Source: Nitrospirota bacterium (GTDB lineage Bacteria; Nitrospirota; Thermodesulfovibrionia; SZUA-242). Taken from it: a DNA stretch of 64,000 nucleotides. The notes beneath the pieces are model-generated. The model had not been told where the DNA came from, made no database searches, and saw only the letters and a list, made by a program, of their open reading frames with translations. How positions within the stretch are numbered: the stretch's first letter is position 1; each line of letters starts with the position of its first letter. The stretch spans positions 3,126 to 67,125 of the forward strand of contig JACRHH010000018.1 of the NCBI GenBank assembly GCA_016212095.1, read 5' to 3'. Of this stretch, positions 1 to 4,794 are shown piece by piece. Made by a program: the position numbers and the translations under genes.

Positions 1-1
1 C

Positions 2-151
2 GGCGATGAACAGGCTAAGGAGATTCAGGCACTCTTTGAGTCAACGCGCAAGGGTGATTTCGCTCAAATCCTTGCTGATAAGATAAGCGAGGGGGCGGCT
101 TTCATCGTTCCAGTGTATATAAAGGACGCCATTGAGGCTCTCGTAAAATGA
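2..151 (+). CDS. 3' end of an upstream gene (partial, function unknown)
   Basis: Frame open from window edge (..GDEQAKEIQALFESTRKGDFAQILADKISEGAAFIVPVYIKDAIEALVK), stop TGA 149-151 overlapping the next ATG in an ATGA arrangement. Confidence 0.3.
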   Translation, partial: GDEQAKEIQALFESTRKGDFAQILADKISEGAAFIVPVYIKDAIEALVK

Positions 152-1907
152 ACGGGTGCATGTTCAATCCGACACCAGAGCAGCAAAAGGTCATTTACCA
201 TGAAAGTTCGGCCTTCATAACGGCTTGCCCCGGCGCTGGTAAGACCCGTGTAATGGTCGAACGGGCACGGCATATGCTGCGGACAAACCATAACGGGCGT
301 GGCGTCGCATTTTTGTCGTTTACGCGCGCGGCCGTGTCGGAGCTTGAAGAACGATTGCGGCAGGAAGCATTGCTCTGTTCCCCAGTGTTTCCGCATTTCA
401 TCGGCACATTCGATAGCTTCATATGGCAATTTGTCGTCGCACCGTTTGGAATAACGGGCATAGAAGCCGTGCCTCGCCTTATTCCTGATAAGGGCTGCCG
501 CATAGTTCAGCCCTTCGAAAAGGCCCAGCCCCTTCCTCTTTCCTGTTTTGATCGCGTAACAGGCAAGATTGATGCCGTCGCTACGCTTCGGCTTCGTTTC
601 GATGTAAACAAAAAAAACCGGCTCTCATAAAGGCATTCGAAACCGCTGCCATAAAGATGCAAACCCGGTTCCGTGAACGGGGGGAGCTAGATTTTGACGA
701 TGCGAGGGCGCTGGCTGTAACCCGGCTTCAGTGTGCTGATTTTTCCAAACGGCTCTCCACGGCTCTCGCTGCACGATTCCGTGAAATCATCATTGATGAG
801 GCACAGGACTGCAATCCGGCAGATCTGGATATCATCAGATGGCTTCGTGATGCCGGGATTCCAACAAAGGTAATCTGTGACCCGCACCAGTCAATTTTTG
901 AGTTTCGCGGCGGCGTCACCGATCAGCTTTTCGCCTTTGCCGACACCTTTGGTAATGACGACCAGCTTGGTATGAGCGGGAATTTTCGGTCCAGCGGTAA
1001 TATCTGCAAAGCGATCGTGATGTTAAGGGCGGCAGAGTCCAGAAATATTGTCGATGCGCCATTTGGTGAATTCAAAAACGAGCAGGCACGTATCTGCATT
1101 TTATCCTATTCGAGCAAATCTGTCTCCGCAGCGATCGGTGAGAAATTTGTCAACCTTTTGAAGGAGGTGCAAATTGATGTTGCCAAAGCCCCAGTATTGG
1201 CCGCAACCAAAAACAGCGCATTCAATGCTATCGGCCGGCCGGTGGTCAAAGCGAAAAGGGATCTAACCCTGCGGCTTGCGGAGGCTGTCAGCGATTTTTA
1301 TTTCGCCTTCGAGTCTGGCAAGCAGAAATCCGCAATTGAGAAGTTTCACGCTGTTTTCTTGGAGTTGCAGGGGAGATTGCCTGGCAAAAGCTATTACCAG
1401 TATATGGTCGAGCATGATCTGAAGCCAGACGAATGGCGTCCAGAAATGCTGCAAATTCTTCGTGCGCTCCGGTATGATCCCGAAATTTACGACGATGCTG
1501 ATACATGGCACAACAGCGCGAAGGAGCTTCTCAAACCGTCTCTGCCTCCAAATAGCCCATCAATCTCTCAGAAGCTCAAGAAAAACAAAGACATTGCGGA
1601 CGTTCTTAGACTACCCTCAACTGAGAGTCCGCCGGCAAAGACTATCCATTCGGTGAAAGGGATGGAGTTTCCTGCCGTTTGCATCGTGACGGTTGCTCAG
1701 ACGCTGAAAGGCATTCTGGATTATCTCGAAACAGGTGCGCCGGTTGAGAAAGCCGAAATGGCACGCGAATTTTATGTCGCCGCGTCAAGAGCTCAGCGCC
1801 TTTTGGCAATTGCAGCGCCCAGAAGCCAAGCAGCAAGGTTTGCCGCACACCTTCGAATGGCTGGCGCAACTGTGACTGTGGTAGACATCAATATTGAGAA
1901 GCAGTAA
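148..1907 (+). pseudogene. UvrD/Rep-like superfamily 1 helicase, split into two ORFs (148-630 and 657-1907) by a frameshift at an A8 homopolymer (610-617)
   Basis: Walker A ACPGAGKT, motif Ia LSFTRAA, motif II IIIDEAQD, motif III VICDPHQSIFEFRGG, motifs V/VI KTIHSVKGMEFPAV and YVAASRA; downstream reading frame is open back to 609 across the A-run. Confidence 0.6.
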
Positions 1908-1922
1908 CCATCAGGAGCCCCC

Positions 1923-2762
1923 ATGCCCACCAGCAAGCATAAAAACGCCGTTACACCCGCCACCGGCGAGTTGCTTCTCTACCAGACCGTGGAGGGTAAG
2001 ACGCGGATCGAAGTCCGTATGCAGGATGAAACGGTCTGGTTGAGCCAAAAGCAACTGGCCGATCTGTTTCAGACCTCAATTCCCAACATCAACATGCACA
2101 TTAAAAACATTTTCGATGAAGGTGAGCTTTCCGATGTTTCAGCTATTCAGGAATTCTTAATAACTGCCGCAGACGGCAAGAACTACCAGACAAAATTTTA
2201 CAACCTCGACGTGATCATCTCCGTCGGCTACCGGGTAAACAGCATTCGCGGCACACAGTTCCGCATCTGGGCAACCCAACGGCTGCGGGAATACATCATC
2301 AAAGGGTTTGCAATGGATGACGAACGCCTCAAACAGGCGGGCGGCGGCAATTACTTCGATGAGCTACTGGCCCGCATTCGCGACATCCGGTCGTCGGAAA
2401 AGGTTTTCTGGCGCAAGGTGCTGGATATTTATGCAACCAGCATCGATTATTCCTCGAATACGGAAACCTCGCGCAAATTTTTCGCCGCGATCCAGAACAA
2501 GATGCACTGGGCCGCGGACGGACACACCGCCGCCGAGATCATTCACGAACGGGCAGACGCGGCAAGGCCGAACATGGGATTGACCGCATGGTCGGGCGAC
2601 GCGCCGCGCAAGGCCGATGCTGAGGTGTCGAACAGGTCTGGAACGAAAACCTCTACACCATGCGCGGGCGCGACGTGCATGAGCATGTGCATGAGGAGTC
2701 GTCCCACGATCTTGCCGGTGTGCGAATGGAACGCGCCCTGCCAGTCTGGTCAAGGCGGCTAA
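1923..2762 (+). CDS. RhuM-family protein, C-terminus apparently truncated or out of frame after about codon 235
   Basis: YNLDVIISVGYRVNSIRGTQFRIWATQRLREYIIKGFAMDDERLKQ block matches my recollection of RhuM proteins; last ~45 codons are Cys/Ser/Thr/Pro-rich and overlap the cas4 frame. Confidence 0.55.
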   Translation: MPTSKHKNAVTPATGELLLYQTVEGKTRIEVRMQDETVWLSQKQLADLFQTSIPNINMHIKNIFDEGELSDVSAIQEFLITAADGKNYQTKFYNLDVIISVGYRVNSIRGTQFRIWATQRLREYIIKGFAMDDERLKQAGGGNYFDELLARIRDIRSSEKVFWRKVLDIYATSIDYSSNTETSRKFFAAIQNKMHWAADGHTAAEIIHERADAARPNMGLTAWSGDAPRKADAEVSNRSGTKTSTPCAGATCMSMCMRSRPTILPVCEWNAPCQSGQGG

Positions 2763-3169
2763 ACCTTACCGGAAAGGCCGATATGGTGGAATTCCGCTGT
2801 GACGTTCCGTATCCTGTCGAGTACAAGTCCGGCAGGCAGAGGAAAGGCCGCCACGAGGAACTGCAACTCTGCGCCCAAGCGGTCTGCCTTTCGGAAATGT
2901 TCGGCGTGACGGTGGATCGCGGCGCGATATATTGGCACGGCTCGCGCGAGCGGCGGGAAGTTCCCTTCACTGACTCACTGCGTCTGGAGGTGGAACACGT
3001 TGCAGCCGCAGTGCATGAAATGATGGCGGGTTCGACGATTCCCCCGCCTGTAAACGACAAGCGATGCCGCGATTGCTCGCTCAGGGAATCGTGCCTGCCG
3101 AATGTGGTGGCGGCAAAGGGAAGAAGCCGCAAGGCTGTGCTGGAACTTTTCGAGGTGATGACGCCATGA
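2624..3169 (+). CDS. cas4: Cas4 RecB-like nuclease, 5'-truncated (first ATG at 2660; frame open from 2624)
   Basis: RecB-nuclease-type D..E.K pattern (GKADMVE...VEYKSG), QLCAQAVCLSEMFG, C-terminal Cys cluster CRDCSLRESC; the N-terminal region that normally carries the first Cys ligand is absent (in-frame stop at 2621-2623). Confidence 0.65.
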   Translation, partial: GVEQVWNENLYTMRGRDVHEHVHEESSHDLAGVRMERALPVWSRRLNLTGKADMVEFRCDVPYPVEYKSGRQRKGRHEELQLCAQAVCLSEMFGVTVDRGAIYWHGSRERREVPFTDSLRLEVEHVAAAVHEMMAGSTIPPPVNDKRCRDCSLRESCLPNVVAAKGRSRKAVLELFEVMTP

Positions 3170-4200
3170 AACAACTCCTTAACACGCTGTACGTCATGAC
3201 GCAGGGCGCGTATGTCTGCCTAGACCACGAAACGGTGAAGGTGGAGGTGGAGGGAAAAGTTCGGATGCAGGTTCCGCTTCATCACATCGGCTCGATTGTG
3301 ACGATGGGCAACGTAATGCTAAGCCCGTTTATCATGGGCCGATGCGCCGACGACGGCAGGGCGATTGTGATTCTGGGCAGAAGCGGACGCTTCAAGTGCC
3401 GTGTTGTCGGCAAGACAAGCGGCAACGTGCTTCTTCGTCATGCCCAGCACGAGGCGGTGCGCGATGGCGGGAAATCGATCCCGATTGCCCGCAACATCGT
3501 GGCCGGGAAGGTGAAAAACGCCAGACATATTCTACTGCGCGGAGCGCGCGAGGCCGACAACGCCGATGACGCAGGCGTTCTGAAAAACGCAGCCGACATT
3601 CTGGCCAATACGCTGTTTCATCTCAAGGATTGCGCCGACATCGACCGGGTGCGCGGCATAGAGGGCGAGGCGGCGAACGCCTATTTCGGCGTATTCGACC
3701 GGATGGTGAAGGAAGAAGCGCGCACGGTTTTCAGGTTCGACGGAAGAAACCGCCGTCCGCCGCTCGATCCGATGAACGCACTGCTGTCGTTTCTCTACAC
3801 GCTTTTGCTGTCCGACTGCGTAAGCGCGGCTGAAGGCGTGGGCCTCGATTCCCAGATGGGTTTTCTGCATGTGATGCGGCCCGGACGCCCGTCGCTGGGG
3901 CTGGACATGATGGAGGAATTCCGCGCCGTTCTGGCCGACAGGCTGGCGCTTACACTGATAAACCGCCGTCAGATAACGGAAAATCATTTCGAGCCAAGGC
4001 CCGGCGGCGCGGTTTACTTAAACGAAGACGGGCGCAAAACAGTTGTGACCGAATACCAGAAGCGCAAGCAGGACGAGCTTCATCATCCGCTGCTTGATGA
4101 AAAAGCGCCGTTCGGGCTTGTTCCGCACATTCAGGCCCGGCTTCTTGCGCGTCACCTTCGCGGCGACATGGATGAATATGTGCCGTTTTTGTATTCCTGA
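3166..4200 (+). CDS. cas1: Cas1 integrase (type I-C-like)
   Basis: ATGA overlap with cas4 stop; 344 aa; N-terminus [26 protein letters not shown] typical of Cas1; position cas4-cas1-cas2-array. Confidence 0.85.
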
Positions 4201-4214
4201 GCGAGGGCAAAACT

Positions 4215-4508
4215 GTGTGGGTGCTTGTATCGTATGACGTTTCCACCGAAACGCCGGAAGGCCGCAAAAGGCTCCGCCGCGTGGCGCAGATATGCAAGAA
4301 CTATGGACAGCGAGTGCAGAAATCGGTGTTCGAGTGTCAGGTGAACGAGATGAAGTTCGAGGAACTGCGGCGCGAGCTATTGCGGATTATCAATAAGGAT
4401 GAGGATAACCTGCGGCTCTATCGCCTGACGGAGCCACGGGAGCGGCATGTGGAAAGCTACGGCTTGATCAAAACGATATTGTTTGACGACGAGCCGCTGA
4501 TTGCGTAG
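4215..4508 (+). CDS. cas2: Cas2 (GTG start)
   Basis: 97 aa, [10 protein letters not shown]...[23 protein letters not shown] typical Cas2; directly after cas1 and before the repeats. Confidence 0.8.
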
Positions 4509-4598
4509 CGCGAACCTGTTGTGCATGAGAAAATGCCGGGAGGTTCGCGGATGGCGCAACAGCTTGATTATTGGAACATTTATTTGAAGCCGTCAAGC

Positions 4599-4794
4599 GT
4601 TGCGTCCGGTCGCAAGACCGGGCGAGGATTGAAACGCGGAAAGGATGGTATAACTTGCTGTAAGTTCACGCTACAACAGCGTGAGCGTCGCGCCCGGTCG
4701 CAAGACCGGGCGAGGATTGAAACCGGTCGTCTCTCTCCGCGCTGGTTATCAGGCACGGTCGCGCCCGGTCGCAAGACCGGGCGAGGATTGAAAC
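4599..4794 (+). CRISPR. CRISPR mini-array: three 37-bp repeats (4599-4635, 4687-4723, 4758-4794), spacers of 51 and 34 bp
   Basis: Consensus GTCGCGCCCGGTCGCAAGACCGGGCGAGGATTGAAAC with 9-bp stem/GCAA loop and ATTGAAAC 3' handle typical of type I-C; first repeat has 2 mismatches. Confidence 0.75.

What the first reader, a model, noticed from the sequence alone, without database searches (positions are those of the whole stretch)
1923..3169. Orphan CRISPR adaptation module: RhuM gene abuts a 5'-truncated cas4, no effector genes
The cas4 frame is open only from 2624 (stop at 2621-2623) and lacks the N-terminal region that normally carries the first Cys ligand, while the RhuM-like ORF loses recognisable similarity at about 2635 and continues out of frame. 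The two genes therefore meet at a sharp junction near 2620-2640. Upstream, where cas3/cas5/cas8c/cas7 would sit in a type I-C locus, there is only RhuM and a helicase pseudogene.
Basis: partly seen in the sequence, partly recalled or inferred. Interest (0 to 1): 0.6.

Follow-up and report, generated by a model that had tools for sequence, protein, structure and literature searches.

The report
Decayed type I-C CRISPR locus remnant
This is the broken remnant of a type I-C CRISPR-Cas operon: a 410-bp deletion fused its resident rhuM defence gene to cas4, and a separate rearrangement removed or displaced the effector genes. That is ordinary genome decay, not a new kind of stand-alone adaptation system.

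Summary
RhuM similarity stops at nt 2627 and Cas4 similarity starts at nt 2628. There is a TGA at 2621-2623. No I-C effector gene occurs anywhere in the 64-kb window.

The interpretation needs correcting. rhuM is not a foreign neighbour. In about half of 30 related Geobacteraceae-type I-C loci it lies inside the operon, usually between cas7 and cas4, with its stop overlapping the cas4 start by 11 nt.

The closest relative is L074 (84-88% nt identity). It reads cas7-rhuM-cas4-cas1-cas2-leader-repeat. Against it the window lacks exactly 410 nt: the last ~111 rhuM codons and the first 28 cas4 codons, which include the N-terminal Cys motif.

The effector genes were lost at a different scar, at nt 1890-1893. 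There a frameshifted Gabija helicase gene (gajB) loses its stop codon and runs into the last 15 nt of cas7.

cas1, cas2 and the 178-nt leader are intact. The array holds one genuine spacer. dN/dS of 0.08-0.18 against L074 suggests the lesions are recent.

Still open: whether cas3-cas7 were deleted, or merely displaced upstream of gajA by insertion of the Gabija genes. The sequence beyond the window could not be retrieved. Low interest.

The parts
1..151 (+). 3' end of gajA (Gabija ATPase/OLD-family nuclease). Its stop overlaps the gajB start as ATGA.
   Evidence: With 501 extra upstream nt from the identical Logan contig L035, the 216-aa C-terminal fragment matches PADLOC GajA PDLC00100 at 8.7e-107.
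148..1889 (+). gajB (Gabija UvrD-type helicase), a pseudogene. A -1 frameshift in the A8/CC run at about 609-620 splits it into ORFs 148-630 and 657-1907. Its own stop codon is missing.
   Evidence: Full-length homologues are 581 aa. P0002 (79% identical) matches PADLOC GajB at 1.2e-262. tblastn of P0002 maps aa 1-167 to frame 1 (148-648) and aa 150-581 to frame 3 (594-1889). Of 109 homologues, 103 end at the residue encoded by 1887-1889.
1890..1907 (+). Scar of the event that separated the effector genes. The last about 15 nt of cas7 (ATT GAG AAG CAG TAA, 1893-1907) are fused in frame to gajB. The origin of 1890-1892 (AAT) is uncertain.
   Evidence: Window 1893-1909 is 15/17 identical to the cas7 end plus spacer start of L074. 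The 30 nt before it are 8/30 identical. The same GAGAAGCTGTAA cas7 end occurs in L007 and L022.
1908..1922 (+). cas7-rhuM intergenic spacer with a Shine-Dalgarno-like AGGAG.
   Evidence: It aligns with the spacers of L022 (CCCGGAGCCTACCC) and L001 (..CCCGGAGCCACCC) upstream of the rhuM ATG.
1923..2627 (+). rhuM remnant (codons 1-235 of about 346). This is the RhuM / PADLOC PDC-S05 candidate defence gene.
   Evidence: Pfam PF13310 scores 263 bits but covers only profile positions 2-168 of 252. PADLOC PDC-S05 scores 2e-112 over positions 6-227 of 330. The remnant is 84% nt identical to L074 362-1070.
2628..2762 (+). Out-of-frame tail of the RhuM ORF, reading through cas4 DNA to a stop at 2760-2762.
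   Evidence: ORF list. The weak 'RhuM tail' tblastn hits fall on the alternative frame of cas4 in relatives.
2628..3169 (+). cas4 remnant (codons 29-209). The RecB-type D/ExK motifs and the C-terminal CxxCx5C are kept. The start codon and the N-terminal YCPRQC are lost. The first in-frame ATG is at 2660, with no Shine-Dalgarno sequence.
   Evidence: TIGR00372 scores 107.6 bits over profile positions 23-180 of 180. The remnant is 86% aa identical to L074 Cas4 from residue 29 on.
3166..4200 (+). cas1, type I-C, full length.
   Evidence: TIGR03640 scores 517 bits (cut-off 385) over profile positions 1-339 of 340. It is 94.5% aa identical to L074 Cas1, with dN/dS 0.084.
4215..4508 (+). cas2, full length, GTG start.
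   Evidence: TIGR01573 scores 72 bits and Pfam PF09827 gives 1.4e-27. dN/dS against L074 is 0.090.
4509..4686 (+). CRISPR leader, 178 nt and full length, with a near-perfect repeat copy embedded at 4599-4635.
   Evidence: It is colinear with the 178-nt leader of L074. The last 51 nt are 47/51 identical to L074.
4687..4794 (+). Minimal CRISPR array: two identical 37-nt repeats (GTCGCGCCCGGTCGCAAGACCGGGCGAGGATTGAAAC) and one 34-nt spacer.
   Evidence: Repeat searches. The repeat is identical to the single repeat of L074. The spacer has no match among phage records.

Best explanation
The region is the recently decayed remnant of a type I-C CRISPR-Cas operon of the Geobacteraceae kind. In that kind, the single-gene defence candidate rhuM (PDC-S05) sits between cas7 and cas4 and is translationally coupled to cas4.

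Two independent lesions are visible.

- Lesion A: a blunt 410-bp deletion at 2627|2628. It removed the last ~111 codons of rhuM, the 11-nt rhuM/cas4 overlap, and the first 28 codons of cas4 (start codon and N-terminal Cys ligand region). rhuM is left reading out of frame into cas4, and cas4 has no start.
- Lesion B: a junction at 1890-1893. It joins the last sense codon of a Gabija helicase gene (gajB, itself frameshifted) to the final ~15 nt of cas7. cas3, cas5c, cas8c and nearly all of cas7 are therefore no longer in front of rhuM.

Shown:
- both junctions and their positions;
- the ancestral gene order in relatives;
- intact cas1, cas2 and leader;
- a one-spacer array;
- low dN/dS in all four genes.

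Inferred:
- B was a deletion, so the effectors are gone and not merely displaced.
- The locus cannot interfere.
- Any spacer uptake by the surviving Cas1-Cas2 would lack Cas4-dependent PAM selection and trimming, and would be useless unless a compatible I-C effector exists elsewhere in the genome.
For: Gene identities:
- Cas1c TIGR03640, 517 bits; Cas2; Cas4 profile positions 23-180 of 180; RhuM profile positions 2-168 of 252.

Ancestral order:
- Every related I-C locus whose contig reaches upstream of cas4 carries cas3-cas5c-cas8c-cas7 (about 27 of the 34 loci).
- rhuM lies between cas7 and cas4 in L001, L004, L006, L011, L012, L013, L016, L022, L023 and L074.
- The rhuM stop overlaps the cas4 ATG by 11 nt in 6 of 9 such loci where it could be scored.

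Lesion A:
- blastn against L074 maps window 1919-2627 to L074 362-1070 (84%) and 2628-4723 to L074 1481-3579 (88%). This leaves 410 nt unmatched, with no microhomology.

Lesion B:
- GajB homology ends exactly at 1889.
- 103 of 109 homologues stop there.
- The next 17 nt are 15/17 identical to the cas7 end of L074, whereas the preceding 30 nt are 8/30 identical.

Other evidence:
- No effector homologue occurs in the window.
- The lesions look recent: dN/dS against L074 is 0.146 (rhuM remnant), 0.176 (cas4 remnant), 0.084 (cas1) and 0.090 (cas2), at dS 0.33-0.64.
- RhuM is a defence candidate (PDC-S05). A preprint reports phage protection in E. coli (10.1101/2024.09.26.614923).
Against: - Sequence upstream of gajA is not visible. 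The window starts 150 nt before gajB, and L035 adds only 501 nt, all of it gajA. Absence of the effector genes from the genome is therefore not shown.
- The cas7 scar is only about 15 nt long.
- One distant GajB homologue (P0038, 58% identical) has a C-terminal extension, DIETQRS, that faintly resembles the window's NIEKQ.
- Cas1 shows 5 unique changes at 159 otherwise invariant columns, against 0-3 in relatives. That is as expected for a long branch and says little either way.
- The junctions rest on one MAG contig. The independent Logan contig covers only the 1890 scar, not the 2627 junction.
Confidence: 0.72

Rival explanations
1. Insertion, not deletion. The two-gene Gabija cassette (gajA-gajB) inserted into the 3' end of cas7. 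The effector genes cas3-cas5c-cas8c and a cas7 lacking its last five codons would then still lie just upstream of gajA, outside the window. The locus would be a split I-C system, possibly still partly functional, that later also suffered the 410-bp rhuM/cas4 deletion.
For: - In relatives, the cas7|cas4|cas1 junctions are clear hot spots for inserted guest genes: rhuM, Bro-N proteins, toxin-antitoxin pairs, and duplicated cas4/cas7 fragments in L004 and L005.
- The same Gabija pair sits in unrelated contexts in L036, L037 and L038, so it is mobile.
- Low dN/dS of cas1 and cas2 fits a system that was in use until recently.
Against: - None of about 30 related I-C loci has Gabija inside the operon. 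tblastn with both GajB parts found nothing in them.
- The rest of the locus is visibly decaying: cas4 truncated, rhuM truncated, gajB frameshifted, one spacer.
- An insertion ending exactly at the last sense codon of gajB is as much a coincidence as a deletion ending there.
Confidence: 0.2
2. A working stand-alone adaptation module. Cas1-Cas2, with or without an N-terminally shortened Cas4 translated from ATG 2660, still acquires spacers into the mini-array. These would be used in trans by a complete I-C system with the same repeat elsewhere in the genome.
For: - cas1 and cas2 are full length, with the conserved Cas1 GIEG, GFLH and LGLD motifs still readable in the translation, and with dN/dS of about 0.09.
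- The leader is full length and 90% identical to that of L074.
- cas1 has its own GAGGTG Shine-Dalgarno sequence upstream of ATG 3166.
Against: - Only one genuine spacer is present. The closest relative, with an intact operon end, has none.
- The cas4 remnant lacks its start, its Shine-Dalgarno sequence and the N-terminal Cys of the Fe-S cluster. It also lies inside the out-of-frame tail of the RhuM ORF.
- No second array with this repeat and no effector gene occurs in the 64 kb.
- Low dN/dS is equally explained by the lesions being recent.
Confidence: 0.08
3. Assembly artefact. One or both junctions (1890, 2627) are chimeric joins or collapsed variants in a metagenome-assembled contig, and the real genome has an intact operon.
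For: - The source is a MAG contig.
- The independent Logan contig of the same sample ends at window position 1939, 32 nt after the 1890 scar. This hints at a graph branch nearby.
Against: - The Logan contig is identical to the window over 1,939 nt and spans the 1890 scar itself.
- A mis-join would not be expected to keep cas7's last codons, its spacer and the rhuM start colinear with relatives.
- The 2627 junction joins two parts of one operon in the correct order and orientation, as a true deletion does.
Confidence: 0.04

Closest known systems
Type I-C (Dvulg) CRISPR-Cas systems, canonical order cas3-cas5c-cas8c-cas7-cas4-cas1-cas2-array (for example the Nitrospirota locus L073)
   Same: Cas1c (TIGR03640), Cas2, Cas4 (C-terminal 181 aa), a 37-nt repeat ending ATTGAAAC, a 34-nt spacer, and a leader downstream of cas2.
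   Different: No cas3, cas5c or cas8c. Only 15 nt of cas7 remain. cas4 lacks 28 N-terminal codons. The array holds one spacer.
Geobacteraceae-type I-C operons with nested rhuM (L074, L001, L006, L012, L022 and others)
   Same: Same order cas7-rhuM-cas4-cas1-cas2-leader-repeat. 84-88% nt identity to L074 and an identical repeat.
   Different: The window lacks the 410 nt spanning the rhuM/cas4 overlap, and has gajB where cas7 should be.
RhuM family (Pfam PF13310), equal to PADLOC candidate single-gene defence system PDC-S05
   Same: Strong match over the N-terminal two thirds. The family was proposed as a toxin-like domain in restriction-modification contexts (PMC3710099). A preprint reports protection against T7, T5 and T4 in E. 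coli.
   Different: Truncated at profile position 168 of 252, so presumably inactive. Here and in relatives it is embedded in a CRISPR operon, not a restriction-modification operon.
RhuM-domain ORFs between cas1 and cas9 in Bacteroides fragilis type II-C loci (PMC5704556)
   Same: A RhuM-family gene lodged next to the adaptation genes of a CRISPR-Cas locus.
   Different: Different CRISPR type and phylum. There the ORFs were only noted in passing. No overlap with cas4, because II-C has no cas4.
Gabija (GajA OLD-family ATPase/nuclease plus GajB UvrD-type helicase)
   Same: The gajA 3' end and gajB match PADLOC Gabija models, with the typical ATGA overlap.
   Different: gajB is frameshifted and has lost its stop codon to the fusion with cas7.
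Degenerate or orphan CRISPR loci and stand-alone cas1-cas2(-cas4) modules described in CRISPR classification surveys (my own background knowledge, not checked here)
   Same: Adaptation genes and a short array with no effector genes beside them.
   Different: Here the scars of the missing parts are still readable and cas4 is broken. It is a remnant, not a maintained stand-alone module.

Membership tests
Type I-C CRISPR-Cas system | Cas1 of the I-C subtype | tested here: met
   TIGR03640 cas1_DVULG scores 517.2 bits (cut-off 385) over profile positions 1-339 of 340.
Type I-C CRISPR-Cas system | Cas2 | tested here: met
   TIGR01573 scores 72.3 bits (cut-off 24.5). Pfam PF09827 gives 1.4e-27.
Type I-C CRISPR-Cas system | Full-length Cas4 (RecB-type nuclease with four Cys ligands of an Fe-S cluster) | tested here: not met
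   TIGR00372 matches only profile positions 23-180 of 180. 28 N-terminal codons, including YCPRQC, are absent relative to L074 and nine other relatives.
Type I-C CRISPR-Cas system | Effector and interference genes cas3, cas5c, cas8c, cas7 adjacent to the adaptation genes | tested here: not met
   tblastn with verified L006 Cas3, Cas5c, Cas8c and Cas7 finds them in every related I-C locus that reaches upstream of cas4, and nowhere in the 64-kb window. Only a 15-nt cas7 end remains. The genome outside the window was not testable.
Type I-C CRISPR-Cas system | CRISPR array with I-C-type repeats and a leader | tested here: met
   Two 37-nt repeats ending ATTGAAAC with a 34-nt spacer, and a 178-nt leader colinear with L074. 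The array is minimal in size.
RhuM family / PDC-S05 | Complete RhuM domain (Pfam PF13310, 252 positions) | tested here: not met
   263 bits, but only profile positions 2-168. Intact relatives cover positions 1-248.
Gabija | Intact GajA plus intact GajB | tested here: not met
   GajB is split by a -1 frameshift. Only the last 216 aa of GajA could be seen.
Functional stand-alone (orphan) adaptation module | Intact adaptation genes maintained without adjacent effectors, with evidence of use (array turnover, or a compatible effector in trans) | tested here: inconclusive
   cas1 and cas2 are intact and under purifying selection against L074. However, cas4 is broken, the array has one spacer, and no trans partner is in the window. 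The rest of the genome could not be searched.

The most novel reading that the evidence does not exclude
The interesting biology is in the intact relatives, not in the broken locus. RhuM (PDC-S05) is a recurrent member of Geobacteraceae-type I-C operons. It sits at the adaptation module, and its stop codon overlaps the cas4 start by a conserved 11 nt. A Bro-N protein often occupies the cas4|cas1 gap. This could mean that RhuM works with Cas4-Cas1-Cas2, for example as a DNA-sensing or abortive back-up coupled to spacer acquisition, and is not a mere passenger. On that reading, the window's single deletion would have taken out a functional RhuM-Cas4 unit.
Probability: 0.15. Interest if true: 0.6.

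Novelty: new member of a known kind. Interest (0 to 1): 0.25.

Why it matters
For this window it matters little. It is one more CRISPR-Cas locus caught shortly after losing function, inside a defence island whose neighbours are also breaking (gajB frameshifted, rhuM truncated).

It is a clean worked example. Both deletion scars are still readable to the nucleotide, because a close intact relative exists.

The comparative by-product is more useful. In this I-C lineage the junctions cas7|cas4|cas1 are preferred sites for other defence-type genes. The rhuM-cas4 pair has a conserved overlapping arrangement that I did not find described in the papers searched. Annotation pipelines that see 'RhuM next to cas4' should read it as the normal state of these operons, not as a boundary of the locus.

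Tried and rejected
1. 'Leader truncated by ~88 nt.' I inferred this from an alignment with distant relatives and then withdrew it. The close relative L074 shows that window 4509-4686 is a full-length 178-nt leader. The '51-nt spacer' is the repeat-proximal part of the leader, and 'repeat 1' is a repeat copy inside the leader.

2. A longer cas7 remnant reaching back to ...TVTVVDI. Rejected: that stretch is the native GajB C-terminus, shared by 103 of 109 homologues.

3. The five extra codons NIEKQ as a native GajB extension, because P0038 ends ...DIETQRS. Judged unlikely. The closest homologues all stop at I411, and the DNA matches the cas7 end of L074 at 15/17 positions.

4. Microhomology at the 2627|2628 junction. 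None is seen when L074 is the reference.

5. Retrieving the source contig or sequence upstream of gajA. Exact look-ups of Cas1 (two start variants), Cas2, the RhuM ORF, the Cas4 remnant and a peptidase found nothing. GajB gave only a 2.4-kb Logan contig. The metagenome scan gave no relative above 57%.

6. Spacer targets. No phage match for either the 34-nt spacer or the 51-nt pseudo-spacer.

7. RhuM structure. The AlphaFold model from a shallow 34-sequence alignment was poor (mean pLDDT 53), so no fold search was run. A profile search of PDB sequences gave only spurious uS9 hits.

8. Decay of the surviving genes. Counts of unique substitutions at invariant columns were uninformative. dN/dS against L074 shows no relaxation.
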